Part shown: positions 30,236 through 46,212 of the stretch, in pieces | How the letters are laid out: the number at the start of each line of letters is the position of its first letter | How positions within the stretch are numbered: the first letter of the stretch is position 1 | Assembly (NCBI GenBank): GCA_964611345.1 | Contig: CAZSYU010000004.1 | Span: forward strand, 17,620 to 81,619 | Direction of reading: 5' to 3' | Source of the DNA: an uncultured Pseudomonadales bacterium | GTDB lineage: Bacteria; Pseudomonadota; Gammaproteobacteria; Pseudomonadales; Azotimanducaceae | DNA length: 64,000 bases | Position numbers and translations under genes: made by a program | Notes under the pieces: model-generated | Told to the model about the DNA's origin: nothing | What the model saw: only the letters and a program-made list of their open reading frames with translations | Database searches by the model: none

Positions 30236-30272
30236 TGTATTTCTCCATTCGTTTCCAATTCATGAATATATG

Positions 30273-31349: not shown

Positions 31350-31359
31350 TAAACAACAC

Positions 31360-32709: not shown

Positions 32710-35700
32710 TATCTGGAACCCCCAGCACTAGTTGCGGTTGGCGTGGGTGCTTGTTCTGCGATAGCTTCATTACTGTCACCACCGCCAGCGCTACGCCCAC
32801 GTACGGCTGTACCAGTGCCTTCTGTATCCTGCACAAACCAGGGCTCGCCCGATTCATTGAGGTACAGCTTGTTCATGTCTTCACGGGAGAGTGGTCGAGA
32901 ACCACGGCGCCCAAACACCGCAATCTGTCCACCGGTTTCGTCTACACCCCGATCCCGATCAAGCCCTTTTGATAGTGCCAGTGCTGGCCGCTTGGTGGGA
33001 TAACTCGCGATTAGTTTGGGGTTTGGCTCGGGGCTAAAGCCATAGAAGTTCGGCTGCAGGGAGGGCGACGTCAACTGCACAACTTTCAACCCACCCGCGC
33101 CATCGGCAACGTAGGCAAATAGCGAAGCATTGGTGCTCGCTACGACAACATCATGTGCGTCGACAATCTTGCCACCATCGTTGTAGGTCTGGAGCAGGCG
33201 CATATTGTCGGGTTGAGTGACATCTACCACTGCGAGACCTTGTGCTCCTGCGGCAACATAGGCATAGGTTCGCGCCACGTACACGCGCTTGGCATCACTC
33301 AACGTAATCGTCGACGCTGATAATTTCGGTGCTTTGTTATTGGTGACATCAACGGTCTGCAATCCGTCTGCCGTCGTTACAAACAAATAGCGGAATTGCA
33401 GCGCCGTCGCTCGAGGGTCGCTCATGGGTATGCGGCTCACCAATTGCGGCTCCAGCGGATTCTGCAAAGACACCACCAATACTTCCGTTGGTAACGTCAG
33501 ATAGGCAATAGACCCCCCCAGTGTGATGTGACGAACACCATTTAGCAGACCGTCTGGGTTCCAGGTGAGTGCCCGGCTGAGGTTATTGTTGCGCAGCTCG
33601 CCGTCTTGCAGTGTATTAACGTCAACCAGAATCAAACCTTCTTGGGCATCTGTGATCACCGCGTAGTTGTAAATTGGATGGAAGGGCTGCTCCTGATTGG
33701 TGATACGCATCAGATCGCCTTCGTTCTTAAACGGTGCAATAGGTTGCGTAGACGGCAGCGCCATGCAGGTAGCGTTCTTCGACTTCACCTGTGTACCCTG
33801 ACCGAGCGGACTGAACGGCGTTGTCACAATGCGCTGCGAAAAGCCCTTGTTCGCAACGTTGGCAATGTCATAAACGCGCATTCCGTTTTTACCTTCGGCA
33901 ACGTACAAGTACTCGCCGCGCATTTGTAGACAGTTTGCAGGACCCGAACGATGCCCATACGCATGCTTCAGTACCCCGCCACGCGCTTCATGCTGCGCAA
34001 AGAAATCAGGGTAGGCGTACTTTTGCAGGTAACTGCCAATCACCGCCTGGGGCTCTTCCCACTCGGTTACTTGCACCGCAGAGACCTCGCCATCACCACC
34101 AACCCAGGCGTTATAGCCAACGAAGTTAACGAAGTTGGTTCCGAACATAAGTAGCTGGGCCATAATCGCGTTGTTATCGTTCTGTTCCGACAGATGACAA
34201 TCGCTGCAATTCTTGGTCTCTGATAATCGCACAGTGTGCGGGAAGTGAGGATTGAAGGCCTGCGAACTGAAACCTGAAGCGGCAACCGGTGGTTGCTGAA
34301 TATAGATTTTCTCACGGTTAGCATTTGTCGATGACAGTACCAACGCCGAGGTAGAGCGCACTGGCGCTATCTTGCCACCCTTGGCCGGACCCCTTCGTCC
34401 AAGCAGAAACATCTGATCCCGGGCAACCTGGGGGTTATAGCTGGCAAAGTTTCGACTCTTGCCCCCTTCATAGTGGTGTCGTTCGGTTTTCTTGTTCGCC
34501 TCAATGGGCAAGTGACAACCACCGCAGCTCGTTGTCCAGGACGTATGACAGGTGTAGCACTCCATTTCATCATAGGAATGGGCCAGATCAACACTGGCAA
34601 CCTGATTACCCCACTCCTGTGTTTCGGTGTTGTTAGACATGGTTTTGGCGCGCGCTGCCTTCGAGTTGTAATCCGAGTGTTTCGGATCGACCGCGTTCTT
34701 TACCAGACTGACTTTCCACTCAAGATTTTCATCGAGTGCTGAGCGCTGGTAGAGATCCCCGTTCACCCACTCGAAGCGAGGCCGCCCACCAGGCACCCGA
34801 AGCGACAGAAAATCTGTTCCGCCACCAATCGCAGCTGGTCCGGAGGCGTAGAGATTGGGCAGCTCTTTTGAGGTGCCGTGGCAGTCTTTGCAATCAACCT
34901 CAACAGCAAGTGCTACTTCTCCCTGAATGTGGCCGTTGCCGTGGTTGTCCTGGGCAAAGTGGCAATCAACACAGTGCATCCCCACATCCAGGTGAATCGA
35001 CGACATATGTACCGCCTTGTCGAATTTCTTGGGATCGTCGTTTTCAACCACGTTGTTCTTCGCATCGAGCAGATTACCCGTGCGATCACGTTTGAATACG
35101 GCTCGAAAGTTCCAGCCATGACCGTGATAGTCGGCGAACTGGGTATCATTTAATTCCGGATTCAGCTCAGATACTGCCTCCAGAAAATCCGTGTCCGCCC
35201 ATTTGCCACGGGGCGCTGCTCCTTCCGGATTGCGCTCCAACACTTCATGAATCTCTTCGCTGGTCGGATATTGTTGCTGCTCCGGCCACATCGCAGGCGC
35301 GTCCGATTCGTAGTCCCACATGGTGTAGCCCAGGTAACTGTTCACAAACATGTTCGGCTGGTGCATATGACAAATCATGCATTGTGATGTGGGTATCGCA
35401 TTGGTAAAGCTGTGCTTGATGGGATGCCCTGATTCGTTTTTTGGAATGGTCGGATCAAGCGTTGCGGTTTTACCAGTGTGGCCATGCTGGGCGTAACCGC
35501 CTGAATGTCGCGGATCACGGTCGTTGGCATACACAACGTGACAGGATGCGCAGCCAGAATTGCGATAATCACCCGGTTGATCGTTAGTGCCCATAAACCA
35601 GGTAAAAGGGTCATTCAGACGTGTTTTAGTGATATTGATTACGGGGACAGAAATGCGCGCACCCGTTGCCGGGCCACGGTTTGATTGACGAATATCAGGT

Positions 35701-36638
35701 CGACCCGGTTCCTCCAGACGTTGCACCAAGCCTAAGGAGTTGGGTATAGCCGTTTCCGGGAACAGGTTAATGATGTTGCGGCCGCCGCGCTCAAACACTC
35801 GAAACACATCACCGGGCTTGGTCGTTTCCCAGGCTGGCAAAGGCAACAGTTGCGGCAAAATACCTTTCTCATCTTTCAGCTGCTCCGCGAGCACCGTATC
35901 TAGCACCGGGCCTTTCAACACCGCTGGCTTACCGTCGGTGGTGTAAGATTCACCCAATATGTACTGCTTGAACGGCAAGATGCCGTTGTTGTAGGCCGCA
36001 CCGCCCCAAAGCATGGCGCCTGTGGCGTGCAACGACCGGACAGATTTCTCAATCTGATCCTGGTGACATGAACCACACGCCAGCTCAACGACACGATAGT
36101 CAGAAGGATTCACAAAACGCACAAACTCGCGGCTTTCTTTATTTAGCAGCGTGTACGTGCGCTCCGGATTGGCAGAATGCGGGTAGTGCCAAGCGTCAGG
36201 GTACTCCGGCAGTATGTGTGCCAACTCCTTAACCGCAATGTACTCATCCGACTGGTTGCCTTTAGGCAGACCATGACCGCCTTCGCCACCACTCTTGGCA
36301 TTACGCGGCACAAACTGACTGGCATCACCGCCGTGGCAATCGGTACAACCCAGATCCACGCCCGGCGCGTTGTGCATGGTTTTTTGATCAGATTCGGTAT
36401 GGCAAGATACGCAACCCGCACTCTTTTCACTGGCAGCAATAGCGCTTGGCTGATTTGCCGGGGCCGCAGGTGCCATGACGTAGTTACGCTCTACTTTTAT
36501 TACTGCCTCAGAAGCTTCAACCCCTTCGCTCCATATAGTACTGAAAACAAAGCCAGCACCGGTCACGCCAGCTGCTAACAAACTCAACGAAACCAGTAAG
36601 CCGCGCAACTTCTCAATTTTTCGCATCGAATTGTTCAT
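32709..36638 (-). CDS. Decaheme c-type cytochrome fused to a C-terminal LVIVD-like beta-propeller
   Basis: N-terminal signal/anchor helix. Ten CXXCH motifs between about nt 36416 and 34193, including a paired CYTCHTSWTTSCGGCH. The C-terminal ~350 aa (about nt 33940-32900) has repeated GMRVYDI, GLILVDVN, GLAVVDVT and GLKVVQLT strands. ATG 36638 is preceded by GAGGAG. Confidence 0.8.
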   Translation of the reverse strand: MNNSMRKIEKLRGLLVSLSLLAAGVTGAGFVFSTIWSEGVEASEAVIKVERNYVMAPAAPANQPSAIAASEKSAGCVSCHTESDQKTMHNAPGVDLGCTDCHGGDASQFVPRNAKSGGEGGHGLPKGNQSDEYIAVKELAHILPEYPDAWHYPHSANPERTYTLLNKESREFVRFVNPSDYRVVELACGSCHQDQIEKSVRSLHATGAMLWGGAAYNNGILPFKQYILGESYTTDGKPAVLKGPVLDTVLAEQLKDEKGILPQLLPLPAWETTKPGDVFRVFERGGRNIINLFPETAIPNSLGLVQRLEEPGRPDIRQSNRGPATGARISVPVINITKTRLNDPFTWFMGTNDQPGDYRNSGCASCHVVYANDRDPRHSGGYAQHGHTGKTATLDPTIPKNESGHPIKHSFTNAIPTSQCMICHMHQPNMFVNSYLGYTMWDYESDAPAMWPEQQQYPTSEEIHEVLERNPEGAAPRGKWADTDFLEAVSELNPELNDTQFADYHGHGWNFRAVFKRDRTGNLLDAKNNVVENDDPKKFDKAVHMSSIHLDVGMHCVDCHFAQDNHGNGHIQGEVALAVEVDCKDCHGTSKELPNLYASGPAAIGGGTDFLSLRVPGGRPRFEWVNGDLYQRSALDENLEWKVSLVKNAVDPKHSDYNSKAARAKTMSNNTETQEWGNQVASVDLAHSYDEMECYTCHTSWTTSCGGCHLPIEANKKTERHHYEGGKSRNFASYNPQVARDQMFLLGRRGPAKGGKIAPVRSTSALVLSSTNANREKIYIQQPPVAASGFSSQAFNPHFPHTVRLSETKNCSDCHLSEQNDNNAIMAQLLMFGTNFVNFVGYNAWVGGDGEVSAVQVTEWEEPQAVIGSYLQKYAYPDFFAQHEARGGVLKHAYGHRSGPANCLQMRGEYLYVAEGKNGMRVYDIANVANKGFSQRIVTTPFSPLGQGTQVKSKNATCMALPSTQPIAPFKNEGDLMRITNQEQPFHPIYNYAVITDAQEGLILVDVNTLQDGELRNNNLSRALTWNPDGLLNGVRHITLGGSIAYLTLPTEVLVVSLQNPLEPQLVSRIPMSDPRATALQFRYLFVTTADGLQTVDVTNNKAPKLSASTITLSDAKRVYVARTYAYVAAGAQGLAVVDVTQPDNMRLLQTYNDGGKIVDAHDVVVASTNASLFAYVADGAGGLKVVQLTSPSLQPNFYGFSPEPNPKLIASYPTKRPALALSKGLDRDRGVDETGGQIAVFGRRGSRPLSREDMNKLYLNESGEPWFVQDTEGTGTAVRGRSAGGGDSNEAIAEQAPTPTATSAGGSR

Positions 36639-36649
36639 CCCTGAGCTCC

Positions 36650-38629
36650 TCAAAACGCCAACACAAGGTTCATCTGGAAATAACCTGCTTCTTCATCCGG
36701 AAACAAATCCTTGAACCCCTTACCGGGAATCAGATGCGCATAGCTGGTGCGCACTACAATGTTCTGGGTTACCAGTGGTCGCCAGATTAGACTCAAGGAC
36801 AGGTCATGGCCGATCTCTTCGTCGATCGAGCCCTGGTTACGCACTGTTTCGAGCACCTGGGTGTGATCAAAGCGCATATAGTTGTAGTTGAAGCTCAATC
36901 GCAGTGATGGCAGGAGATCTGCATCGGCACCAATTCCAGCGAGTATCATCCCTGGATTGGTGAAGTTTGACTGGCCCTGTTCCTTGGACGATCGTAGATT
37001 GTTTAGCAGCCCATTCCGGGTAGACAAAGCAACGCGCCCCCCGCCAATCAACGGCACCGATTGCCGCAGCCAATAGCTGGTGTCTGAACCCGCGAATACA
37101 GGATTTTCGAATATGGCATCAAAGCCGGTTGCCCGATCGTCGAACGGGTCTTTATCACCACTGCCGTAGAGCAATGACCCACGAAGGCGCAACCAATCCA
37201 TATCAAAGCCGGCTTCAGCGGCAAAGAATCCAGCCCTGATATCAACCTTCCTCTCTTCGAACACACCCGGTTCAACGCTGCCTATCGCATAGTACGCAGA
37301 AGTTGTCAGATTAAGCCGACCAAAGTGGCCATCACCGTTGTAACCGAAGTACACCACATCGTATTTACGTGGCCGTTCGTCGCCAATGGAGGCGGGGCGA
37401 GCAATAAACTCGTTGTTGTCGAAGAAAAATTCATTGTCTTCCCGGTTACGGTTGTAAACAACGGTCGCCTGCGACACAAAACCAAGTTTCGGGAAGTCTT
37501 GCCAATAGAAGTTGGCTGCCACGACGTCGTCTTTGCGTAAATCTCGGGTAACGTCGTTCAACCCACTGTTAGTGTCCTTCTCGAGACGCCGGAAGTACGC
37601 AAGGTTGTACTGGAAGATGTTGTTATTGCGGTTACCAAACAGACGAACCCCTAGCTGGCTGTCCTGAAAAAGAAAGCCACGAAAATCGCTGTTAAACGGC
37701 TGAATACCAATTCGAAAACTGTCGAAATCGTATCGATCGCCTACGTTACGCAAGTGTCGATCATAGAACGCTGCCTGAATACCCAAGTGATGGTCAGTTC
37801 GTGACGTACCTCGGCTTGGTCGGGCGTTTACACCCTGAATCTCATCGAGATTTACATAGTTGATGCTCAGCACCGGCGTAAACCGAAACTCATGATCGGG
37901 AGGGCGAAACACCGTGTCGCCTTTCAGATACACAAATTCTGCAGCAAGATTTTGGTTAAAGAAGATTTGATCGGAAGTGCCAAAAATGTCGATGCCCCCG
38001 GGATCGTTAGTCGAGGACGCGCCCACAGGTGTCGGCACTTCGCGCACTTCCAATATACTGTCTGACAGCGCGTTAATGGAAAAGAACCATTCGTCGTCAT
38101 TGACGGGAATATCGCCCTTCAATACGTTGCGATTGTAGGGATCCCACCACGGATACTGATAACGAACCGAGTCATTGCCCACAACACCCCGGAACCCATC
38201 CAGGTTATCAACAATACGCCAGCGATCAGGCATGGCGAGCGTCACACAGTTCTGTGCACCCCCTTTGCAGTCTAGCGTCGGCGCCGCTGCCACACACTCG
38301 CTGCGGCCGGAACTGACGCAGGGCACTTTGGAAGGCGTATTTCTGCCACGTATCAGGCCATAGTCGAATACATTTTCTTCCCCGGCCGCACGCGCGGTCG
38401 AGCCTTCTACTCGATCGGCAGCGTTTTCTGCATCAGGACGCGGACACTCTACGCGTATGTAACCGGGTCGACGTCGATTGACTATGCGACCGCGATCGTC
38501 TGCGTAACAGACTTCAGCGGCTTCAACAGGCAGCGCGGACAGCATCAAGATCACCGTACCACCGGTGACACTGGCACCCAGCACGACCGCACATGACAGA
38601 GCTGCAGACAGTAATGATAGAACTTTCAT
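36650..38629 (-). CDS. Putative large outer-membrane beta-barrel (porin-like) protein with a Cys-rich N-terminal extension
   Basis: Signal peptide (MKVLSLLSAALSCAVVLGA...). Six Cys in the first ~100 mature residues. Long alternating aromatic/hydrophilic strands follow, with a C-terminal ...QMNLVLAF ending in Phe as in OMPs. The ATG directly abuts the upstream TAG. Confidence 0.6.
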   Translation of the reverse strand: MKVLSLLSAALSCAVVLGASVTGGTVILMLSALPVEAAEVCYADDRGRIVNRRRPGYIRVECPRPDAENAADRVEGSTARAAGEENVFDYGLIRGRNTPSKVPCVSSGRSECVAAAPTLDCKGGAQNCVTLAMPDRWRIVDNLDGFRGVVGNDSVRYQYPWWDPYNRNVLKGDIPVNDDEWFFSINALSDSILEVREVPTPVGASSTNDPGGIDIFGTSDQIFFNQNLAAEFVYLKGDTVFRPPDHEFRFTPVLSINYVNLDEIQGVNARPSRGTSRTDHHLGIQAAFYDRHLRNVGDRYDFDSFRIGIQPFNSDFRGFLFQDSQLGVRLFGNRNNNIFQYNLAYFRRLEKDTNSGLNDVTRDLRKDDVVAANFYWQDFPKLGFVSQATVVYNRNREDNEFFFDNNEFIARPASIGDERPRKYDVVYFGYNGDGHFGRLNLTTSAYYAIGSVEPGVFEERKVDIRAGFFAAEAGFDMDWLRLRGSLLYGSGDKDPFDDRATGFDAIFENPVFAGSDTSYWLRQSVPLIGGGRVALSTRNGLLNNLRSSKEQGQSNFTNPGMILAGIGADADLLPSLRLSFNYNYMRFDHTQVLETVRNQGSIDEEIGHDLSLSLIWRPLVTQNIVVRTSYAHLIPGKGFKDLFPDEEAGYFQMNLVLAF

Positions 38630-40822
38630 CTATAAGCCCTCGCAAGGTCGTTGAATGGAGGGATCAAACGAACCACCTTCCAGGAACGGCGATTGCGGAC
38701 ACTGGATGTAACGCAAGCGCGTATCGCGAGGCATGAGCTGGTCCGCACGTATTTCGGGTGGCGCGTTGTTTATGCTGCCCGTCTCAAGACCAGCCTCATG
38801 CAAGCCCAAAAACGAGATCATGTCGTCCTGATCTACGCCGTCACCGGATACGCCGATGCCACCTATGAGCATGTTGCCGCGATAGATAGGCACGCTGCCC
38901 GGAAAAATCTGAAAGCCATTAGCTACCCTGTTAGTCATCGCGGCCGGGCTGATAGATACCAGCCCGAGATCGATGAGCCCAGGCGTCGAGGTGCCCGGAT
39001 TAAACCCGGCACCGGCACACCCCTGGACCACATCTGGCGCGAGCGCCCCATCGGTGACGGAGAACAGCACATGTTGCACCAGAGCGTTAATCGCCAGATC
39101 GAGCTGCAAACCCGTCGAGAAAGGGCTCCACTCACCAGCTGGCTTGCTCAGTGGGCCAGCGCCTCGCTCATCAATACCATCAGGAAAAAATGGCCGCGAC
39201 AAATTGCCACCGGCTCGATCAGAAAACGCAAACGCGCCATTGGCCAGAGCCAGCGGATCTTCGAGGAAGTTACGCAGGTCGGTGACGTAATCACCGAGCG
39301 ACAGAACTTGAAACAACTCCGGGCCAGCATCTGTAAATCCAACATAATTAGTGGGCGGCAGAGCGTTCAAAAAGTCTGCGCTACTGGCGCTGGAAAAAAA
39401 TGCGGCGGTTCGTGCTTTTTGTAAGGAGACGTCCGCACCAAACACTGGAGCATCGCGAGTACGCACCATTCCCAGTATTTCACCATTGGTATCAACAACA
39501 GAGATAGTGACCCGGGCCGGTGAATTCAACGGCCGGCGAATCTGTGCACGCGCACTATTGGCTACCCTTAAGGCGTTACTCAACAGGGACTGGGTTTCCG
39601 CTACCGTAAGCTGATTACCGCCAGTTTCAACGGCGTCAGTGCCGGGTCGTGCCGGAAACCGATTGACATTGGCAGCGTTTACAAAAACAAACGCATCCTG
39701 ACCATCAAACCCACTTACCGCCGGCCTGATACCTGACGCTGGCGTACCGAAGGCCGTGCCGGCGCGAATGGTCCCGTCAAAATAGCCGGTAACATTAACA
39801 AGTGCACCCGTCGCGGTTGAGAACGCAGGCGCGTTGGCCGGATCACTCATCAGGTCTTCGACACCTGCATCACTGAAGCGAAAAGTCTTGCCATCTACGG
39901 TAATTCGATTGGCACGACGGTCGAGGGGCGCAGACCAACCGAAAGACGCAGCGACCGCAATCAGTTCGTCGATGTCTGTATCAATGTCACCAATGGCCGG
40001 GTCTATGCCATAGCGACCGTCCGCAATGACGCCCACGCCACCTACGGGCACACCGTTGCGATACAAAGGCAGGCCACCTGGATCAGCAGCCAAACCCAAT
40101 GGTGAACGATGGGGTCCTGGTTCTGCGGCTCCGCCACTAAAACGCTGTGAAAAGTCCGAACAGGAAAGCTGCGAAAACTGCACGCCAAACAGTGGTCCGG
40201 CCGGCTGGTTTAGCTCGCCGGGGTTAAAGTGCTCTTGCACGATCTGATTCGCGGTGCGAGTAGTAAACGCATTACCTTCACTCGATAGATAAGCGCCTGT
40301 TATAGCCTTAGCGATGGCACCAAGCTGGTCGATATTAAAGGGCACGGCTGCTGTAGGGAGCCGCAATCCCTCGAGGCCACCACTAATCAGCGGCGTCCCA
40401 TCGTCTGCCGTGGCAGTTGCAACCAGCATGGATCGATCCGCAGGATCACCCATGCGGAACACACCAAGCACATTACCCACCCGATCCGTTACCGCAATGG
40501 TGGCCTGGACATTTCGCGCCTGTGCCTCAGCCACACCTTGAGCGATGATTGTTTCTACATCAGCAACAGAGAGCGATTCGGGTACCGTTGTGCCGCACTC
40601 ACCAGAGCATGCCGGATCGGGACCGGTTACTCCTAGGGGTTCTTCCCGACCACCGCCGCCACAGCCACTAAATTGCGCAAGCACGAATACTGCGGCCGCA
40701 ATTTTTAGTTTCAGCGACGGTTTGTAACGGTCATTCCGTTTAAAGCGTTCATAACGTTTATAGGTTTCTTTGACAAAACCATGGCCCACACTCTGACCCT
40801 CTACCATCTTGGTTGCGTTCAT
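38630..40822 (-). CDS. Lipoprotein with two GlcG/HbpS-like (DUF336, heme-binding/degrading fold) modules
   Basis: Lipobox LAQFSGC. Module 1 has ATIAVTDRVGNVLGVFRMGD ... GGLPLYRNGVPVGGVGVIADG. Module 2 has VTISVVDTNGEILGMVRTRDAPVFGADVSLQKARTAAFF ... GSVPIYRGNMLIGGIGVSGDGVDQDD. The ATG overlaps the upstream TGA (ATGA) and is preceded by AGGAGG. Confidence 0.65.
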   Translation of the reverse strand: MNATKMVEGQSVGHGFVKETYKRYERFKRNDRYKPSLKLKIAAAVFVLAQFSGCGGGGREEPLGVTGPDPACSGECGTTVPESLSVADVETIIAQGVAEAQARNVQATIAVTDRVGNVLGVFRMGDPADRSMLVATATADDGTPLISGGLEGLRLPTAAVPFNIDQLGAIAKAITGAYLSSEGNAFTTRTANQIVQEHFNPGELNQPAGPLFGVQFSQLSCSDFSQRFSGGAAEPGPHRSPLGLAADPGGLPLYRNGVPVGGVGVIADGRYGIDPAIGDIDTDIDELIAVAASFGWSAPLDRRANRITVDGKTFRFSDAGVEDLMSDPANAPAFSTATGALVNVTGYFDGTIRAGTAFGTPASGIRPAVSGFDGQDAFVFVNAANVNRFPARPGTDAVETGGNQLTVAETQSLLSNALRVANSARAQIRRPLNSPARVTISVVDTNGEILGMVRTRDAPVFGADVSLQKARTAAFFSSASSADFLNALPPTNYVGFTDAGPELFQVLSLGDYVTDLRNFLEDPLALANGAFAFSDRAGGNLSRPFFPDGIDERGAGPLSKPAGEWSPFSTGLQLDLAINALVQHVLFSVTDGALAPDVVQGCAGAGFNPGTSTPGLIDLGLVSISPAAMTNRVANGFQIFPGSVPIYRGNMLIGGIGVSGDGVDQDDMISFLGLHEAGLETGSINNAPPEIRADQLMPRDTRLRYIQCPQSPFLEGGSFDPSIQRPCEGL

Positions 40823-42663
40823 TCCTTTCCACCTCCTGAGTCACCACCGGCGACTCTCCCCGCGTTGGTCGCCCACTGTTGCGCGCTTGCTTGCCCACCT
40901 AGTAAGGGTGCTCCATCAAAGCCCGCAAAGTTCCGCGGGTGATACGCGTGACAATCTATGCACGCCAATGCCACCTGAGATACACTATCGCGATCGCCAT
41001 GGCACTCATAACAGGTGGCCATCGTTGGCATAAGCAGATCGGTCGCACTGGCAGAATTCTTGGCGGCGTGACAGGTATCGCAGGCCTGATCACCCACCAA
41101 CAGCTCGCTACTTTCGCCATCACGCAACACCTGATGAGCGATATGATCGAATCGCGCATCGGGCACAAAATCCTGTGGCAGCTTCACTGGATGCACCCAG
41201 AACTGGTCTTCGATATCCTTCGAATCCTGGCGTTCAAACTGATGACACGCAGCACAGCCGATATCACCGGCAAACTGAGCTTCGACGATCTCTTTTAGTT
41301 CACGCTCCACACAGACGTCTGGCGCGTCAGTACAACCGGCCACTCGATCCGGACGATCTGGCAAACGGCGATAGGCAAACAGCTCACCCGTGTCATCAGG
41401 ATCGAAGTATTTTTTCAGTAACATGCCTTCAAGCGCCAACACCGCTTCTTTTAAACGCGCATGTGGCAAGCTCCGATCAGGGTCGGACTCATCAAAATCA
41501 AGTTGGTGACAATCCTGGCAATGCGCTTCCATGCTGACTGGCAAGAAATGTTCGCCGTCGATGCTCATGCTGTGGCAGGTTCCGCAAGTGAGAGCTTCAC
41601 CGGTTACTAAATCTGACACTTCGCCAACATCCAGATGAATATCGTGAGGAAACACAAGTTCCGAAGTTTCTGGCGAATTCGCTATCTCAGTTTCGCTGAC
41701 CGCTTCGATCCGCCATCCATCATCTTTCGATCCGGCAAACTCCTCGAGCGTGAAGCGCGGTAGCGAGTATTCGTAAACCGGATGGGTTTCTGGAGTGAAG
41801 CCCGTCACTGCTGCTAACGGATCTATATCGCGATGAATGCCACCACCAGAGTCAGTGCCTGCTGCGTGGCATTGCACACAGTCACCATCGGCGTCGCGAA
41901 CTAAAGTGCTCGGCTCGTTGTGCTCCCGATGACAGACGCCACAACGCTCATTTGCATTGGCACCGAAGTCGAGCCCGCCAGACCCAAGTTCGCCAGGCAC
42001 GGAGGTCGCGGCTAAAAACGCGCTGCTGACATGATCTTGAATTGAACCGTGGCACGCCTCACAAGCCTCGTTTTGAACACGTTCGAAGGGTTTGCCGTGA
42101 CAACCGGCACAATTTTCGCCCGTGACCAACTCATGCGCGGCATGCAGCTCACCAGACGTCCATACATGATCTGAAAAGAGCCCACTAACCGGCGCCTGGG
42201 TGGCGCGTTCGCCGGAAAACAGAAAGGGCACAATAAACATACCCAGTAACACAACCAGTGCACCAATCCATGCGAACGCACGTTTCGCTAAAAACGTATC
42301 AGCCAAGCTGAGTTTTTGTGTTGACAACACCGAAACATGATCTGCTGCACGACGCACTATCAACATGCCGTCAAAACCACCCGGCGCTTCTTCTACATGC
42401 ACGCTAGCACCAGGTAGCTCTATGAGATCGCCGGATCGCAAAACACAGCGCTTAACCACATTGCCGTTAACCTGCACACCATCACGAGTGGTGCTGCGCA
42501 AGACTAGCCCTTCTCGTCCCAGCTCAATACTCGCGTGGCGCAGTTCAAGCAGCGGTAGTTGCAGGTGCGCATCGTTAGCAGACCCGAGAATAACGCGATC
42601 AATCCCGTGTTCTTGGTCTATGTGGCCGCCTGCTTCCCTGGCGATGCGTATCAAGAGGTCCAT
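40819..42663 (-). CDS. FHA-like domain / single TM / periplasmic decaheme c-type cytochrome fusion protein
   Basis: The N-terminal ~100 aa are FHA-like (RVILGS...LRHASIEL...TRDGVQVNGNVV...GDLIELPG). One TM (AFAWIGALVVLLGMFIVPFLF). Then ten CXXCH motifs (CAGCH, CEACH, CGVCH, CVQCH, CGTCH, CQDCH, CAACH, CDTCH, CYECH, CIDCH). ATG 42663 lies 4 nt after the upstream TAA. The track ORF starts at 42693. Confidence 0.8.
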   Translation of the reverse strand: MDLLIRIAREAGGHIDQEHGIDRVILGSANDAHLQLPLLELRHASIELGREGLVLRSTTRDGVQVNGNVVKRCVLRSGDLIELPGASVHVEEAPGGFDGMLIVRRAADHVSVLSTQKLSLADTFLAKRAFAWIGALVVLLGMFIVPFLFSGERATQAPVSGLFSDHVWTSGELHAAHELVTGENCAGCHGKPFERVQNEACEACHGSIQDHVSSAFLAATSVPGELGSGGLDFGANANERCGVCHREHNEPSTLVRDADGDCVQCHAAGTDSGGGIHRDIDPLAAVTGFTPETHPVYEYSLPRFTLEEFAGSKDDGWRIEAVSETEIANSPETSELVFPHDIHLDVGEVSDLVTGEALTCGTCHSMSIDGEHFLPVSMEAHCQDCHQLDFDESDPDRSLPHARLKEAVLALEGMLLKKYFDPDDTGELFAYRRLPDRPDRVAGCTDAPDVCVERELKEIVEAQFAGDIGCAACHQFERQDSKDIEDQFWVHPVKLPQDFVPDARFDHIAHQVLRDGESSELLVGDQACDTCHAAKNSASATDLLMPTMATCYECHGDRDSVSQVALACIDCHAYHPRNFAGFDGAPLLGGQASAQQWATNAGRVAGGDSGGGKE

Positions 42664-42667
42664 AGGC

Positions 42668-43543
42668 TTACCAGTACCAAAACACGACGACAATATGGAT
42701 AACGAGAGCGAACAAAACAGCTATGGAAAGCGGCACATGAATATACAACCAGGCCTGCAACAAGCCCTGCATTTGCACATCCCGACGCACGCGCCGCAAC
42801 AAATCCTGACGGCGCGCAGTGAGGGACATCAGATGGCGCAACGCTGTTGTTTCTTTTCCATCGCTCGCTTGCGTTGCAGCCTCCGATAGAAAGCGCAACA
42901 GATTACGTTGATCAAAATTGCTGCGGTGCTGATTGCCTTCAGAGCTGGCTTCCTGGAACGTAGATCGATCGCTGCCCAGCAGCTGCCGGAGAAAACCACC
43001 TCCGACTCGGGTTTGGTCCAAGGCCGAGCGCACTGTATTGTTTATATCGTCAGAGCAATCCGCCGCTCGCTCGAGGCTCGCCAGCTCAAGACTTTCCAAC
43101 TCTTCAATATTCTCTGCTCGACTGCGCGTTTTACGCACCGACGATAATCGTCGCGGCAGCGAGAGGTAGACAAACATGCCAAACACGCCGCTGGCGATCA
43201 CCGCCATCATTAACCAGAAGAACAGCGAATGAATGTTCCAGCCGAGTTGCCCAGCGCTATGGAACAGGCTTACCCCGATGAGTGCAGTACCCAGATAAAC
43301 GTGCGCACTTACCCAACCTTTTAGCGACCCACCTCGCCCATAGCGGCGCTTGCGCACTCCCAGATAGTTCAACCAAAAGATGAGCAATCCAGCAATGATG
43401 CCAAGCGTCAGTCCTTGCCAGGTACCGCCACTAGGTGGAGTCGTTGCGTCTTGCAGCCAATACAGTCCAAAGCTGATCGCAAGCAATCCAAGCGCTACCC
43501 ACAGATACCGACCGCCTGCATGTTGCAACGCGTTCTGACTCAT
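42668..43543 (-). CDS. Five-TM inner-membrane protein with two His pairs (candidate di-heme b electron carrier)
   Basis: Four N-terminal TMs, a ~130-aa hydrophilic loop and a C-terminal TM. His81/His95 lie on TM3 and His269/His283 on TM5, each pair spaced i/i+14. The ATG overlaps the upstream TGA (ATGA). Confidence 0.55.
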   Translation of the reverse strand: MSQNALQHAGGRYLWVALGLLAISFGLYWLQDATTPPSGGTWQGLTLGIIAGLLIFWLNYLGVRKRRYGRGGSLKGWVSAHVYLGTALIGVSLFHSAGQLGWNIHSLFFWLMMAVIASGVFGMFVYLSLPRRLSSVRKTRSRAENIEELESLELASLERAADCSDDINNTVRSALDQTRVGGGFLRQLLGSDRSTFQEASSEGNQHRSNFDQRNLLRFLSEAATQASDGKETTALRHLMSLTARRQDLLRRVRRDVQMQGLLQAWLYIHVPLSIAVLFALVIHIVVVFWYW

Positions 43544-46086
43544 AGCGCGTCTCGCTCAATAATGCGCACAAAGTCTTTTGGACTGACGCGTTGCGCCGCG
43601 CCGGTCGGACAAGCGGATACACAGGCAGGACCACCGGTAACATCAAAGCAGGCATCACACTTCTTGGCCTTTTTCACCTGCCCTTCGGGTCCCTTCGCAG
43701 CTTTATCTTCGCCAGGACCAGACCCCATGCCAAACAACAGCCAGCTGAACAAACCCGGCTTCGCCGGCGCCTCAGGCGCCATCCGAATCACATCGTACGG
43801 GCAGTTACTCTGGCAGTTGCCGCAGCCAATACAGGAATCATCGATAAACACTTCGCCATCACTCGCCCGGTGAATGGCATTAGGGGGGCAATCCTTCATG
43901 CAGTGCGGTTGCTGACAGTGACGACACGATATGGGTATATGAACGTGGGCCATCGTACTGCCTGATTTCCGGTCGAGCCGCGAAATACCGTCGTGTGTTT
44001 CAGCACACGCGGTCTCACAGTTATCGCAACCGACGCAGAGATATTCATCGATAATGAGAGCGTTAGTGGCCTCTCCCAAACCGTCGCCCAACATAAATTC
44101 CAAAACCTGAGAAGACTCACGACGAGTTTCCCACTGCGAGTACTTCATCAAATCGCGACTCGCCCGCGCATCGACAATATCTTCCTGCTCCATATCGAAC
44201 ATCATCAAGCGTCGATACTGTTCCTCAGTGATCTCCAGCGTTTCAGTTAACACCGACGCCTCAGCAACATTGGTTCGTGCGTTCTGGTTGTACATGGCCA
44301 TAAAACCGACCATTTCTCCGGCCCGTTCTTCGGCGATCAGATTTCGCTGTTCATCAATTTCGTTGAATATCAACACGGTGCCGGAGCGAATGAGATGCAG
44401 ACTGTTACTGTCATCCCCAGGTTCCCACAAGCGTTGACCCGCTTTAAAACTATGCTGCTGAATCTCATCCGCAATGGGGCGCAGCTCCTCAACCGTCGCC
44501 GCCGGAGCAAAGTGGCGCTGCAACTCGCGCACAATGAACACCCAGTCAATGCCTTCGCGCACCGCATCATTGGAGGCGATGAGTTTCAAAATGGTTCGGC
44601 GTGGTGTTTCGAGAACAATGCAGTTGTCGCCCGCCATGGCTGTCTCGGGTCTGGGCTGGCCAGCAATAAGACTCATTTCCCCGAAGAACTCACCCCGCCC
44701 AAGGCGTCGTTCACCACCAGCAAAACTCGACGACCCAAGCACCACTTCGCCGTCGAGTACCGTATAAAACGACACACCAAAGTCACCTTCGGTATAAAAC
44801 TCATGTCCTTTTGGAATAACTTTGGTCACACTGGGCTGGGCCTTTGAATACGCCTCATCGCCAGAAATTTTTCGTTCCACGTCCACAAGCGACAGCTCCG
44901 CGTCCTCGATGCTGTCTTCGTCAGGCAGCCCGACATACAGCGAGCTTTCAATCACCATCTCGCGAAATGCCAGCACACTAAGCTGACGAAACATCGGAAT
45001 CCGTGACATGAACAGACTAATGAGTTCGTCGGCATCCCGATCATAGGGCAGGCCAGCAAACTGAAACTCAATCAGCTCATGATCTGCCGGTTTGACGAAA
45101 TTGCCATTCGCAAACTCGACAACATCATAGCCCTGGTTCATCGCCTGCTTGATGAGTGGGCACCCTGCCAACGCACCGACCACATAAAGGCCTGGCACAC
45201 TACTTTCGTAGTGTTCGCTCAATACCGGCAACGCATCAGCGCCAGCGTGGCTCATCGTCATGCCGCAGCCTTCGAGAAAACCACGGGGGGGAATAGAACC
45301 AAGCCGGGCAATAATGCGATCGGCCTCAATCAACTCTTCGCCTTCTGCGGTGGCGATGGTCACCTTCAGGTCCGGACCTGTACCGTCACCCGCAACGATG
45401 CTGTCGATTGAGGCGGAATACAAACACCCCAGGCTAACGTCATCATTGTTCGCGGCTGCGAGAATGGCGTTTAGGTTACCTTCTTTAGCGCGGGCAAATT
45501 CCGCCTTGCGATTTAGAATGTACACCTGGTTTTGCTCAGACAGCGCCAACGCATTTTCAATCGCGGAATCGCCAGCCCCAACCACAATTATGGTCTCGTT
45601 GCTGTATTCGCCTGGATCGTCCAGCTGATACTGAATATTCGGCAGCTCTTCGCCAGTTACTCCCAAGCGGCGAGGGTTACCCTGGGTGCCGATCCCGAGC
45701 ACAACGTTTGCCGCTGTTACCGTCTGACCATTGGCAAGCTTTATCTCAAAACCGCCGCGCTCACCCTGAATACCAGTAACTTCGGCGCCGTATTGCACAT
45801 GCAGTGCTTGATCTTCGGCCGCGGTGTCCCAAATACCTAGAATTTCTTCGCGCTTGCCGGCATCAAATCCCACATCACTACGCAAACGCAAATAGCCCGG
45901 CTCGGCCATAACGTGCTTGCCTTTCTGATACCGATAGATGGTCTTGGAGAGATGATCGAAGCCTTCAAGCAGCACATAGCTGGGAGTGGTCGCGCCACTT
46001 TGCTTGTCACGCGCTGCTGCGCGCGCTGCTGCCGACAACCCCGCTGGTCCAGAACCAACGATAGCTAACTGATATTGCACTTCCAT
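43540..46086 (-). CDS. Fusion protein: FAD/NAD(P)-binding pyridine nucleotide-disulfide oxidoreductase + two cyclic-nucleotide-binding domains + 4Fe-4S ferredoxin domain
   Basis: Two Rossmann motifs (LAIVGSGPAGLSAA and IIVVGAGDSAIENA). cNMP phosphate-binding cassettes FFGEMSLIAGQPRPETAMA and AGEMVGF...ARTNVAEA. Four Cys-cluster motifs (CVGCDNCETAC, CRHCQQPHCMKDCP, CIGCGNCQSNCP, CDAC...CVSACP). No signal peptide. ATG 46086 is preceded by GGGGAGA. The track ORF starts at TTG 46092. Confidence 0.85.
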   Translation of the reverse strand: MEVQYQLAIVGSGPAGLSAAARAAARDKQSGATTPSYVLLEGFDHLSKTIYRYQKGKHVMAEPGYLRLRSDVGFDAGKREEILGIWDTAAEDQALHVQYGAEVTGIQGERGGFEIKLANGQTVTAANVVLGIGTQGNPRRLGVTGEELPNIQYQLDDPGEYSNETIIVVGAGDSAIENALALSEQNQVYILNRKAEFARAKEGNLNAILAAANNDDVSLGCLYSASIDSIVAGDGTGPDLKVTIATAEGEELIEADRIIARLGSIPPRGFLEGCGMTMSHAGADALPVLSEHYESSVPGLYVVGALAGCPLIKQAMNQGYDVVEFANGNFVKPADHELIEFQFAGLPYDRDADELISLFMSRIPMFRQLSVLAFREMVIESSLYVGLPDEDSIEDAELSLVDVERKISGDEAYSKAQPSVTKVIPKGHEFYTEGDFGVSFYTVLDGEVVLGSSSFAGGERRLGRGEFFGEMSLIAGQPRPETAMAGDNCIVLETPRRTILKLIASNDAVREGIDWVFIVRELQRHFAPAATVEELRPIADEIQQHSFKAGQRLWEPGDDSNSLHLIRSGTVLIFNEIDEQRNLIAEERAGEMVGFMAMYNQNARTNVAEASVLTETLEITEEQYRRLMMFDMEQEDIVDARASRDLMKYSQWETRRESSQVLEFMLGDGLGEATNALIIDEYLCVGCDNCETACAETHDGISRLDRKSGSTMAHVHIPISCRHCQQPHCMKDCPPNAIHRASDGEVFIDDSCIGCGNCQSNCPYDVIRMAPEAPAKPGLFSWLLFGMGSGPGEDKAAKGPEGQVKKAKKCDACFDVTGGPACVSACPTGAAQRVSPKDFVRIIERDAL

Positions 46087-46092
46087 GGCCAA

Positions 46093-46212
46093 TCTCCCCA
46101 GATCAACGCTTAGTGTTGTCCGTAACCTACATTCATGACAACCTTTTTATTCTCGATTTCGATAACCTATTCTTGCCGCAGTTTGACTACTGCCATTACG
46201 CAGGTTTTGACC
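46093..46212. promoter_or_regulatory. Divergent control region between the cytochrome operon (-) and the TM-FHA gene (+)
   Basis: 120-nt AT-richer spacer. It carries a direct repeat of TAACCTA at 46123-46129 and 46163-46169 (40-bp period). No promoter boxes were assigned. Confidence 0.35.

What the first reader, a model, noticed from the sequence alone, without database searches (positions are those of the whole stretch)
42668..43543. Small membrane protein with two His pairs at i/i+14 on two TM helices: candidate di-heme b link across the inner membrane
SEEN: I counted His81 and His95 within the helix WVSAHVYLGTALIGVSLFHS. His269 and His283 lie within LLQAWLYIHVPLSIAVLFALVIHIVVVFWYW. Each pair is separated by exactly 13 intervening residues. 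A ~130-aa charged loop separates TM4 from TM5. The gene overlaps the flavo-FeS gene by ATGA and ends 4 nt before the FHA-decaheme gene.

ESTABLISHED: paired His residues with 13-14-residue spacing on two helices ligate two stacked b-hemes in cytochrome b of bc1 and in other transmembrane electron carriers.

INFERENCE: this protein would pass electrons from the cytoplasmic Fe-S domain to the periplasmic c-hemes.
Basis: partly seen in the sequence, partly recalled or inferred. Interest (0 to 1): 0.65.

Follow-up and report, generated by a model that had tools for sequence, protein, structure and literature searches.

The report
Putative two-haem membrane electron wire
This small five-helix membrane protein very probably holds two b-type haems and carries electrons across the inner membrane between a cytoplasmic NAD(P)H/iron-sulfur enzyme and a periplasmic ten-haem cytochrome. 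This class of protein, with the same motifs and the same idea, was already described from genomes in 2017 but has never been tested at the bench.

Summary
The gene lies on the minus strand (42668-43543, 291 aa) with His81/His95 and His269/His283 as stated. It has an ATGA overlap upstream and a 4-nt gap downstream.

- **Conservation:** the four His, plus His105, G48/G62, G85 and S118-G119-x-x-G122, are near-invariant in hundreds of homologs.
- **Topology:** N-in, five TM helices. One His of each pair sits near each membrane face.
- **Synteny:** the order flavo/cNMP/4x[4Fe-4S] protein, then 5-TM protein, then TM-anchored decahaem recurs in about 80 gammaproteobacterial genomes and in Gallionellaceae. 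In a Magnetococcus MAG the first two are fused.
- **Family hits:** homologs give sub-threshold hits to three di-haem cytochrome b Pfam families. No curated family claims the window protein.
- **Structure:** Foldseek and PDB profile searches found nothing.

He et al. 2017 (PMC5566968) defined exactly this class: about 300 aa, five TM, WX3HX13H on TM3 and TM5, SGXXG on TM4, in PCC3/PCC4 porin-cytochrome clusters. They proposed two b haems. This is therefore a new member of a described but uncharacterised kind. What this analysis adds is evidence for a direct, possibly quinone-independent, NOX-like route from NAD(P)H to the c haems.

The parts
42668..43543 (-). Gene for the 291-aa five-TM protein, the putative di-haem cytochrome b (PCC3/PCC4-type inner-membrane protein)
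   Evidence: ORF and translation. Homolog family. AF2 model pLDDT 81.6 with five TM helices.
43457..43510 (-). TM1 (residues 12-29), running in to out; carries no conserved His
   Evidence: Hydropathy; AF2 helix 12-29.
43343..43420 (-). TM2 (residues 42-67), running out to in, with invariant G44, G48 and G62. G48 and G62 are 14 apart. It is followed by the cytoplasmic R64-K65-R66 patch.
   Evidence: Coevolution couples TM2 to both TM3 and TM5.
43256..43324 (-). TM3 (residues 74-96), running in to out, with motif W77-x3-H81-x13-H95 and invariant G85
   Evidence: The His81 codon is 43301-43303 and the His95 codon is 43259-43261.
43160..43234 (-). TM4 (residues 104-128), running out to in, with invariant H105 at the periplasmic end and the S118-G119-x-x-G122 (SGXXG) motif. 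H105 and G119 are 14 apart.
   Evidence: The motif is named by He et al. 2017.
42770..43159 (-). Folded cytoplasmic domain between TM4 and TM5 (residues 129-258): helices plus a beta-hairpin. Conserved residues are G181, G182, Q187, D192, S194, N209, Q212, E231, R244 and R245. It is a candidate docking surface for the Fe-S domain (inference).
   Evidence: AF2 secondary structure and pLDDT; conservation.
42671..42769 (-). TM5 (residues 259-291), running in to out, with motif W265-x3-H269-x13-H283, P271 and a C-terminal F288-x-Y290-W291 in the periplasm
   Evidence: The His269 codon is 42737-42739 and the His283 codon is 42695-42697.
43540..46092 (-). Upstream partner, 850 aa: a TrxR-like FAD/NAD(P)H domain, two cNMP-binding domains and a HycB/PsrB-like domain with four Cys motifs for 4x[4Fe-4S]. 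It has no signal peptide or TM segment, so it is cytoplasmic. Its stop overlaps the 5-TM start (ATGA).
   Evidence: Pfam; NCBIfam; Cys motifs; PDB matches; synteny; fusion.
40819..42663 (-). Downstream partner, 614 aa: an FHA-like cytoplasmic N-terminus, one TM segment (about residues 124-142) and a periplasmic domain with 10 CXXCH motifs
   Evidence: Homologs carry FHA/Yop-YscD_cpl.
29180..40822 (-). Rest of the operon. Genes in order: a lipoprotein with two HbpS-like domains (38630-40822); a 659-aa candidate outer-membrane barrel (36650-38629); a 1314-aa protein with 10 CXXCH and an LVIVD repeat (32709-36653); a 449-aa protein with 4 CXXCH plus one CX4CH (31360-32709); a PP2C phosphatase (30273-31430); and a double-FHA protein (29180-30235).
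   Evidence: Pfam; haem counts. Synteny was tested for the HbpS-like, 659-aa and 1314-aa genes, which recur in most of 81 loci; the 449-aa, PP2C and double-FHA genes fell outside the 8-kb flanks fetched.

Best explanation
The 291-aa protein is an inner-membrane cytochrome b with two bis-His haems stacked across the bilayer.

**Proposed arrangement**
- The cytoplasmic-side haem is ligated by His81 (TM3) and His269 (TM5).
- The periplasmic-side haem is ligated by His95 (TM3) and His283 (TM5).
- TM2 and TM4 flank the haems, and their invariant glycines make room for the porphyrins.

**Proposed role**
The protein is the middle component of a conserved three-gene module.
1. NAD(P)H reduces the FAD of the cytoplasmic 850-aa protein.
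2. Electrons run along that protein's four [4Fe-4S] clusters to the inner haem b.
3. They cross the membrane to the outer haem b.
4. They enter the ten c haems of the TM-anchored cytochrome.
5. In this window they then pass to an outer-membrane porin/multihaem set.

In logic this is a NOX/ferric-reductase-like electron export that need not pass through the quinone pool. The two cNMP-binding domains and the FHA/PP2C/kinase genes would gate it.

**Status of each step**
- Shown: the motifs, their conservation, the topology prediction, the synteny and the fusion.
- Inferred: haem binding, the direct Fe-S to haem contact, the outward direction and the regulation.
For: - **His conservation:** the four His are invariant in 23 homologs. 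In 245 sequences they are 96-100% conserved. They are invariant in 85 diverse representatives at 30-45% identity. Two HX13H motifs occur in 351 of 363 members.
- **Other invariant residues:** G48, G62, G85, H105, G119, G122 and P130.
- **Topology:** five helices by hydropathy and AF2. The R64-K65-R66 patch and the large Arg/Lys-rich domain lie on one side, giving an N-in, C-out topology. This places one His of each pair near each face.
- **Helix packing:** coevolution (mfDCA, Meff 236) gives geometrically consistent antiparallel couplings for TM2-TM3, TM3-TM4 and TM2-TM5, with no credible TM3-TM5 coupling. That fits TM3 and TM5 lying diagonally with a cofactor between them.
- **Family-wise Pfam scan:** 59 of 85 members hit PF01292 (best 33.8 bits, above the 30.1 cutoff). 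15 of 85 hit DUF4405 and 6 of 85 hit Ferric_reduct.
- **Synteny:** the order flavoFeS, 5TM, multihaem c holds in almost all of 81 genome loci, in Granulosicoccus antarcticus and in Gallionella/Sideroxydans.
- **Coupling and fusion:** ATGA translational coupling. A natural fusion of flavoFeS and 5TM occurs in Magnetococcus sp. YQC-9. This also fixes the N-terminus in the cytoplasm.
- **Fe-S domain:** it aligns full-length to the 4x[4Fe-4S] wires HycB and HycB3/4 and has four complete Cys motifs; shorter stretches match PsrB and FdnH.
- **Literature:** an independent published proposal of two b haems for this motif class (PMC5566968).
Against: - There is no experimental haem evidence for any member.
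- The window protein itself reaches only 14.6 bits on PF01292, against a cutoff of 30.1.
- Profile searches against PDB sequences found nothing.
- Foldseek of the AF2 model against the PDB found no cytochrome b (best E = 0.48, unrelated folds).
- hhalign against an E. coli MsrQ profile and against YodB showed no relation.
- The conservation-moment test was inconclusive for TM3.
- The PF01292 match to TM5 would require the opposite helix orientation, so it may reflect motif convergence rather than homology.
- The fusion is known from a single MAG contig and could be an assembly or annotation artefact.
- PCC3-type clusters are described as porin, two multihaem cytochromes and the IMP, with no Fe-S gene listed (PMC5566968). 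At least some members of the motific class may therefore use another partner, possibly quinone.
Confidence: 0.62

Rival explanations
1. The protein is a quinone-coupled cytochrome b. It binds two b haems, but its job is to exchange electrons between the multihaem cytochrome and the membrane quinone pool. This is the model drawn by He et al. 2017 and resembles FdnI, HyaC or cytochrome b of bc1. The flavo-FeS protein would then be an alternative donor or acceptor, or a regulator.
For: - The most frequent sub-threshold family is PF01292, whose characterised members are quinone-reactive.
- He et al. 2017 proposed this model.
- PCC3 clusters are described with the IMP and no Fe-S gene.
- The invariant His105 and the conserved polar residues near the periplasmic face could form a quinol site.
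Against: - In this family the Fe-S flavoprotein gene is immediately upstream in nearly every locus with enough flank.
- The two genes are translationally coupled, and they are fused in one genome.
- No quinone-site motif was identified.
- The His distribution and helix orientation differ from PF01292.
Confidence: 0.22
2. The protein does not bind haem. It is a scaffold or anchor that holds the TM-anchored cytochrome and the cytoplasmic Fe-S protein together, as suggested for the Ferrigenium homolog. Alternatively, its TM histidines bind a metal ion (Fe, Cu or Zn) for sensing or transport.
For: - The Ferrigenium straubiae preprint found no redox motif and suggested a binding platform.
- No curated family, PDB sequence or fold match was found.
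- Two members gave weak CopD hits.
- There are five invariant His, not four.
Against: - Two WX3HX13H motifs at matched membrane depth on two helices, with flanking i/i+14 glycines, are the classic bis-His di-haem signature.
- A pure scaffold would not need four invariant intramembrane His.
- Hits to three di-haem b families recur across the family.
Confidence: 0.1
3. The protein handles haem for cytochrome c maturation. Its TM His pairs would bind and translocate or reduce haem for attachment to the adjacent multihaem apocytochromes, in the manner of CcsBA or CcmF.
For: - CcsBA and CcmF use conserved TM His to hold haem b (established knowledge).
- One member gave a weak PF01578 hit (E = 0.0033).
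- The operon encodes three multihaem proteins.
Against: - There is no WWD domain and no periplasmic His-flanked loop.
- The protein ends in the periplasm after only a few residues.
- Obligate pairing and fusion with an NAD(P)H/Fe-S enzyme fits electron transfer better than haem delivery.
- The Gallionellaceae module stands alone with a single cytochrome.
Confidence: 0.04

Closest known systems
Inner-membrane protein (IMP) of the PCC3/PCC4 porin-cytochrome gene clusters (He, Barco, Emerson and Roden 2017, Front Microbiol 8:1584; PMC5566968)
   Same: - About 300 aa with five TM helices.
- WX3HX13H on TM3 and on TM5, and SGXXG on TM4.
- Encoded beside multihaem cytochromes and a porin-like gene.
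- In PCC4 subgroup II a PF13247 Fe-S gene lies directly upstream and is sometimes annotated as one gene with the IMP.
- The authors proposed that it binds two b haems and carries electrons across the inner membrane.
   Different: - Orthology to their specific sequences could not be tested, because their tables are held only as images.
- They drew electron flow inward to the quinone pool.
- Here the partner is an 850-aa NAD(P)H/FAD, 2x cNMP, 4x[4Fe-4S] protein, and the adjacent cytochrome is itself membrane-anchored with an FHA-like cytoplasmic domain.
- The haem counts here (10, 10, 4+1) differ from PCC4 (4, 5, 10).
- In Gallionellaceae the three-gene core occurs without any porin.
Ferric reductase domain superfamily (PF01794: NOX, FRE, STEAP, MsrQ/YedZ)
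   Same: - His pairs spaced 13-14 residues apart on TM3 and TM5, both running from the cytoplasm outward.
- Two stacked b haems carrying electrons from a cytoplasmic NAD(P)H/flavin donor to an extracytoplasmic acceptor.
- The donor is fused in NOX and separate in MsrQ/Fre.
(Established knowledge, also noted.)
   Different: - Five TM helices rather than six.
- A 130-aa folded domain sits between TM4 and TM5.
- The Pfam HMM gives no hit for the window protein and only 6 of 85 sub-threshold hits in the family.
- hhalign against MsrQ shows no relation.
- The donor carries a four-cluster Fe-S wire, and the acceptor is a multihaem cytochrome c.
Prokaryotic cytochrome b561 / Ni-hydrogenase and formate dehydrogenase cytochrome b (PF01292: CybB, HyaC, FdnI)
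   Same: - A di-haem b membrane subunit that docks a four-cluster Fe-S protein, as FdnH docks FdnI.
- An H-x13-H pair on the last TM helix.
- It is the most frequent weak Pfam hit: 59 of 85 members, one above the cutoff.
   Different: - PF01292 proteins have four TM helices, with ligands on TM1, TM2 and TM4. Their last helix runs from outside to inside, and they react with quinone.
- Here the ligands would be two on TM3 and two on TM5, and TM5 runs from inside to outside.
- The window protein scores 14.6 bits against a cutoff of 30.1.
- hhalign against YodB shows no relation.
Tmc/Hmc-type transmembrane redox complexes of sulfate reducers (periplasmic multihaem c + membrane cytochrome b + cytoplasmic Fe-S protein)
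   Same: The three-layer logic is the same: periplasmic c haems, a membrane b haem subunit and a cytoplasmic Fe-S protein linked without an obligatory quinone step (established knowledge).
   Different: - The proteins are unrelated: NarI/HdrE-type cytochrome b and CCG-domain HdrD-like Fe-S proteins.
- Electron flow there runs inward, from periplasmic hydrogen oxidation.
- There is no flavin/NAD(P)H domain, no cNMP domain and no FHA domain.
Ferrigenium straubiae nonahaem 'NHC' three-gene neighbourhood (bioRxiv 10.64898/2026.01.22.701106)
   Same: The module is the same: an FHA-bearing single-TM multihaem cytochrome, a 5-TM protein and a [4Fe-4S] protein. The Gallionella/Sideroxydans subfamily, which I take to be equivalent, matches the window profile at E about 1e-60.
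   Different: Those authors reported that the 5-TM protein had no redox motif and treated it as a possible binding platform. They did not note the conserved His pairs.

Membership tests
PCC3/PCC4-type IMP (He et al. 2017) | Length about 300 aa with five predicted TM helices | tested here: met
   291 aa. Five helices by hydropathy and by AF2 (12-29, 42-67, 74-96, 104-137, 229-290).
PCC3/PCC4-type IMP (He et al. 2017) | Two WX3HX13H motifs, one on TM3 and one on TM5 | tested here: met
   W77-x3-H81-x13-H95 and W265-x3-H269-x13-H283. Present in 339 of 363 family members.
PCC3/PCC4-type IMP (He et al. 2017) | SGXXG motif on TM4 | tested here: met
   S118-G119-V-F-G122. G119 and G122 are invariant.
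PCC3/PCC4-type IMP (He et al. 2017) | Encoded in a cluster with multihaem cytochromes c and an outer-membrane porin | tested here: inconclusive
   Three multihaem genes are present. The 659-aa syntenic protein has a signal peptide and a C-terminal Phe but no Pfam hit. Its barrel fold was not tested.
PCC3/PCC4-type IMP (He et al. 2017) | PCC4 subgroup II: a PF13247 Fe-S gene immediately upstream of the IMP | tested here: met
   The upstream 850-aa protein hits PF13247 Fer4_11 at 2.3e-11.
PCC3/PCC4-type IMP (He et al. 2017) | Sequence homology to the published PCC3 or PCC4 IMP sequences | not testable with these tools
   The supplementary tables are images and give no sequences or usable ids.
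Pfam PF01292 Ni_hydr_CYTB (prokaryotic cytochrome b561) | Score above the Pfam gathering threshold (30.1 bits) | tested here: not met
   The window protein scores 14.6 bits, E = 0.029, over TM5 only. 59 of 85 homologs hit at E <= 0.1; P0125, the best of them, reaches 33.8 bits.
Pfam PF01292 Ni_hydr_CYTB (prokaryotic cytochrome b561) | Four TM helices with haem ligands on TM1, TM2 and two on TM4 | tested here: not met
   There are five TM helices. TM1 and TM2 carry no conserved His, and the His pairs are on TM3 and TM5. hhalign against E. coli YodB gave probability 0.2.
Pfam PF01794 Ferric_reduct (FRD superfamily) | HMM match above threshold (28 bits), or a profile-profile relation to a member | tested here: not met
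   The window protein gives no hit. 6 of 85 homologs give sub-threshold hits, best E = 1.9e-4. hhalign against a shallow MsrQ alignment gave probability 0.4.
Pfam PF01794 Ferric_reduct (FRD superfamily) | His pairs spaced 12-14 residues apart on TM3 and TM5, both running from cytoplasm to outside | tested here: met
   H81/H95 on TM3 and H269/H283 on TM5, with N-in topology from the positive-inside rule and from the fusion protein.
Pfam PF14358 DUF4405 | HMM match above threshold (26.7 bits) | tested here: not met
   The window protein gives no hit. 15 of 85 homologs give sub-threshold hits (best E = 4.1e-5), each matching a single His-pair helix.
b-type cytochrome (any) | Non-covalent haem b bound with bis-His ligation, with His N-epsilon atoms facing each other across a cavity | not testable with these tools
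   No coordinates are returned for the AF2 model. Biochemistry is needed.

The most novel reading that the evidence does not exclude
The three-gene core forms a self-contained, quinone-independent, NOX-like electron exporter. Its genes are the NAD(P)H/FAD, 2x cNMP, 4x[4Fe-4S] protein, the 5-TM di-haem b protein and the FHA-anchored decahaem c. It would move cytoplasmic NAD(P)H electrons straight across the inner membrane into a periplasmic haem wire. It would be switched by cyclic nucleotides and by Ser/Thr phosphorylation read through FHA domains. That would be a new class of regulated transmembrane electron-transfer complex. It would be widespread in Gamma- and Betaproteobacteria, including iron oxidisers, and distinct from CymA, ImcH, CbcL and Mtr-type routes.
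Probability: 0.4. Interest if true: 0.72.

Novelty: new member of a known kind. Interest (0 to 1): 0.42.

Why it matters
How electrons leave or enter the cytoplasmic membrane is the least understood step of extracellular electron transfer outside Shewanella and Geobacter.

- **Size of the family:** 3290 clusters at 50% identity match the profile. At least 556 hits in a collection holding one genome per species carry a relative.
- **Annotation gap:** the family has no Pfam or NCBIfam model. A 2026 study of an iron oxidiser treated its 5-TM protein as lacking any redox motif.
- **If the di-haem assignment and the direct Fe-S coupling hold:** many aerobic and facultative Proteobacteria would have a regulated route from NAD(P)H to periplasmic and outer-membrane cytochromes that bypasses quinones. 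That bears on redox balancing, metal reduction and the interpretation of 'iron oxidation' gene clusters.
- **Testability:** cultured hosts exist, namely Granulosicoccus antarcticus, Steroidobacter flavus, Tahibacter soli and Pseudoteredinibacter isoporae.

Tried and rejected
- **Pfam and NCBIfam on the window protein:** no family above threshold.
- **Profile against PDB sequences (A1 and A2):** only coiled-coil or designed-protein noise in the cytoplasmic domain.
- **AF2 model plus Foldseek against the PDB:** best E = 0.48 (TorS sensor and similar), with no cytochrome b. Coordinates are not returned, so His-His distances could not be measured.
- **hhalign of the family against E. coli MsrQ and YodB:** no relation. 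The MsrQ alignment has 83-86% identity to E. coli MsrQ, so this test has low sensitivity.
- **Conservation-moment (helical wheel) test:** the His lie on the conserved face for TM5. The test was uninformative for TM3, because residues 76-85 are uniformly conserved.
- **Full-length mfDCA:** dominated by gap artefacts. Only the TM-restricted run was usable, and it is noisy around D32, G72 and W291.
- **The search for related loci with the diverse alignment A2:** failed, as the alignment had no stretch conserved enough. A1 was used instead.
- **Tenderiales Uet cluster** (LVIVD plus multihaem): considered and rejected as a different system.
- **He et al. supplementary files:** searched for PCC4 members or sequences, but only images are held.
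- **Inward electron flow to NAD(P)+:** considered and rejected on thermodynamic reasoning, not on data. Such flow would run uphill in redox potential and against the membrane potential.
Full report
**Observation**

The ORF at 42668-43543 is on the minus strand and encodes 291 aa.
- His81 and His95 lie in one hydrophobic helix, and His269 and His283 lie in the last helix. Each pair is spaced i/i+14 (codons checked).
- The stop of the upstream 850-aa gene overlaps the start codon (ATGA).
- The stop TAA is followed by GCCT and then the ATG (42663) of a 614-aa protein with ten CXXCH motifs.
- Shuffling the protein gives two or more HX13H pairs in 1.2% of trials. The pattern alone is therefore only mildly unusual; conservation is what makes it significant.

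**Conservation**

- A word-indexed search found 2076 relatives, nearly all unnamed.
- An exhaustive profile search found 3290 representatives at 50% identity with E <= 1e-3, and 313 with E <= 1e-30.
- H81, H95, H105, H269 and H283 are invariant in 23 homologs and 96-100% conserved in 245 sequences. H81, H95, H269 and H283 are invariant, and H105 at least 90% conserved, in 85 representatives at 30-45% identity.
- Also invariant or nearly so are G48 and G62 on TM2 (14 apart), G85 on TM3, S118-G119-x-x-G122 on TM4 (H105 to G119 is also 14), P130, W77, W265 and P271.
- Across 363 full-length members, 351 have two HX13H motifs, 339 have two WX3HX13H motifs and 355 have [ST]GXXG.

**Topology and structure**

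- Hydropathy and an AF2 model (pLDDT 81.6, pTM 0.70) agree on five TM helices. A folded, mostly helical cytoplasmic domain of about 130 aa lies between TM4 and TM5.
- The R64-K65-R66 patch and the Arg/Lys-rich borders of the large domain put the N-terminus inside and the C-terminus outside.
- H81 and H269 then lie near the cytoplasmic face. H95, H283 and H105 lie near the periplasmic face.
- A TM-restricted mean-field DCA (Meff 236) gave antiparallel-consistent couplings:
  - TM2-TM3: 61-78 and 51-91.
  - TM3-TM4: 93-109, 86-120 and 88-116.
  - TM2-TM5: 59-273/274 and 44/45/49-291.
  - No credible TM3-TM5 coupling appeared. This fits a bundle in which the two His-bearing helices lie diagonally with something between them. 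I regard this as weak support only.
- Foldseek against the PDB gave no significant hit and no cytochrome b.
- PDB sequence-profile searches were empty.

**Family assignment**

- The window protein has no Pfam or NCBIfam assignment. Its best relevant hit is PF01292 at 14.6 bits against a cutoff of 30.1, over TM5 only.
- Scanning 85 homologs individually gave PF01292 in 59 (one member at 33.8 bits, above the cutoff), DUF4405 in 15 and Ferric_reduct in 6. To my knowledge all three belong to the same di-haem cytochrome b clan.
- The matches fall on the His-pair helices, or on TM1-TM4 for PF01292.
- The ligand distribution (two plus two on TM3 and TM5) and the in-to-out direction of TM5 do not fit PF01292. 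They do fit the ferric reductase domain.
- hhalign against MsrQ (a shallow profile) and against YodB showed nothing.
- I therefore do not file the protein in any Pfam family.

**Context**

The 850-aa upstream protein is cytoplasmic. It has three parts:
- a TrxR-like ferredoxin-NADP reductase/YpdA-type flavin domain;
- two PKA-R-like cNMP-binding domains;
- a C-terminal domain that aligns full-length with the 4x[4Fe-4S] wire proteins HycB and HycB3/4, more partially with PsrB and FdnH, and carries four complete Cys motifs.

The downstream protein has an FHA-like N-terminus. It is not detected by Pfam in this copy and shows BLASTP E = 0.002 to a neighbouring FHA domain. It also has one TM segment and ten c-haem sites.

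The operon continues with further genes:
- a lipoprotein with two HbpS-like domains;
- a 659-aa candidate outer-membrane protein;
- a 1314-aa ten-haem protein with an LVIVD repeat;
- a 449-aa four-to-five-haem protein;
- a PP2C phosphatase;
- a double-FHA protein.

The order flavoFeS, 5TM, multihaem c recurs widely:
- in Granulosicoccus antarcticus;
- in nearly all of 81 genome loci from Pseudomonadales, Steroidobacteraceae, Woeseiaceae, Lysobacterales, Halieaceae and others, usually with the HbpS-like, 659-aa and 1314-aa genes as well;
- in three loci, and in Gallionella/Sideroxydans, as the three-gene core alone.

In Magnetococcus sp. YQC-9 the flavo-FeS protein and the 5-TM protein form one 1110-aa polypeptide. 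This also confirms a cytoplasmic N-terminus.

**Mechanism**

The best-supported reading is a transmembrane wire: NAD(P)H, FAD, four [4Fe-4S] clusters, inner haem b (H81/H269), outer haem b (H95/H283), ten c haems, and then the outer-membrane components.
- Outward flow is favoured thermodynamically and by the membrane potential.
- Inward flow to NAD(P)+ would run uphill on both counts. This is reasoning, not data.
- Outward flow dissipates both reductant and proton-motive force. That would explain the heavy regulatory load: two cNMP domains, a nearby cyclase, FHA domains, PP2C and a Ser/Thr kinase at 52561-54168.
- The main rival keeps the two haems but couples them to quinone.

**Prior knowledge**

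- He et al. 2017 (PMC5566968) described the conserved inner-membrane protein of their PCC3 and PCC4 clusters. It is about 300 aa with five TM helices, SGXXG on TM4 and WX3HX13H on TM3 and TM5. They compared it to the ferric reductase domain and cytochrome b, and proposed two b haems relaying electrons across the inner membrane.
- Their PCC4 subgroup II has a PF13247 Fe-S gene directly upstream, once annotated as one gene with the IMP. The window protein meets every motif criterion.
- No experimental follow-up was found.
- A 2026 preprint on Ferrigenium straubiae described the same three-gene neighbourhood. It stated that the 5-TM protein has no redox motif.
- The Gallionellaceae pangenome lists the FHA decahaem protein only as an unclassified cluster.

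**Verdict**

This is a new member of a described yet uncharacterised kind. What this analysis adds:
- family-scale conservation;
- the flanking glycine pattern and His105;
- the stand-alone three-gene core;
- the fusion protein;
- the case for a direct, NOX-like NAD(P)H-to-cytochrome route.

Noticed in passing
window 52561-54168 (-), 30273-31430 (-), 29180-30235 (-), 46135-46836 (+), 26327-27622 (-): A eukaryote-like signalling set surrounds the electron-transfer operon. It comprises a Ser/Thr protein kinase, a PP2C phosphatase, a double-FHA protein with a C-terminal TM segment, a divergently transcribed TM-FHA protein and an adenylate/guanylate cyclase-domain protein. These add to the two cNMP-binding domains inside the flavo-FeS protein.
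   Followed up: partly
window 38630-40822 (-): A 730-aa predicted lipoprotein (lipobox ...FSGCGG) has two HbpS-like/GlcG haem-binding-type domains. It is conserved in synteny at 45-77% identity in most related loci. Its role in the conduit is unknown.
   Followed up: partly
window 36650-38629 (-): A 659-aa protein has a signal peptide and a C-terminal ...LVLAF, and hits no Pfam or NCBIfam family. It is strongly syntenic (50-88% identity). It is a candidate outer-membrane barrel or porin of the cluster, but its fold was not tested.
   Followed up: partly
window 32709-36653 (-) and 31360-32709 (-): A 1314-aa protein combines 10 CXXCH motifs with an LVIVD beta-propeller repeat. It is the most conserved protein of the cluster, at 52-91% identity in nearly all loci that cover it. 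It is followed by a 449-aa protein with 4 CXXCH and one CX4CH.
   Followed up: partly
window 40819-42663 (-), residues 1-110: The 'FHA' N-terminus of the decahaem protein is not detected by Pfam at E <= 1 in this copy. It lacks a clear canonical Arg/Ser phosphothreonine-binding pair, as judged by reading the sequence. The Sideroxydans homolog does hit FHA/Yop-YscD_cpl. The listed ORF start (TTG at 42693) overlaps the 5-TM gene, so the ATG at 42663 is the likelier start.
   Followed up: partly
P0254 (Magnetococcus sp. YQC-9, MEO5345780.1): A single 1110-aa polypeptide fuses the flavo/cNMP/Fe-S protein to the 5-TM protein. In this protein and in the Gallionellaceae subfamily the TM2-TM3 loop is about 30-40 residues longer and very basic.
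   Followed up: partly
L020 (Tahibacter sp.), L068, L070; L083-L086 (Gallionella/Sideroxydans-type contigs): Some genomes carry only the three-gene core (flavoFeS, 5TM, multihaem c). There are no HbpS-like, porin-like or large multihaem genes within 8 kb, and the flanking genes that were listed (L083-L086) look like housekeeping genes.
   Followed up: partly
window 46857-50459 (-) and 50491-52437 (-): Just upstream of the cluster lie a 1200-aa autotransporter with four Calx-beta domains and a 648-aa protein with Sel1 repeats and a caspase (Peptidase_C14) domain.
   Followed up: no
window 25289-26314 (-): Uroporphyrinogen decarboxylase (hemE, haem biosynthesis) lies about 3 kb downstream of the operon, after a glutamate dehydrogenase gene and the cyclase gene.
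   Followed up: no
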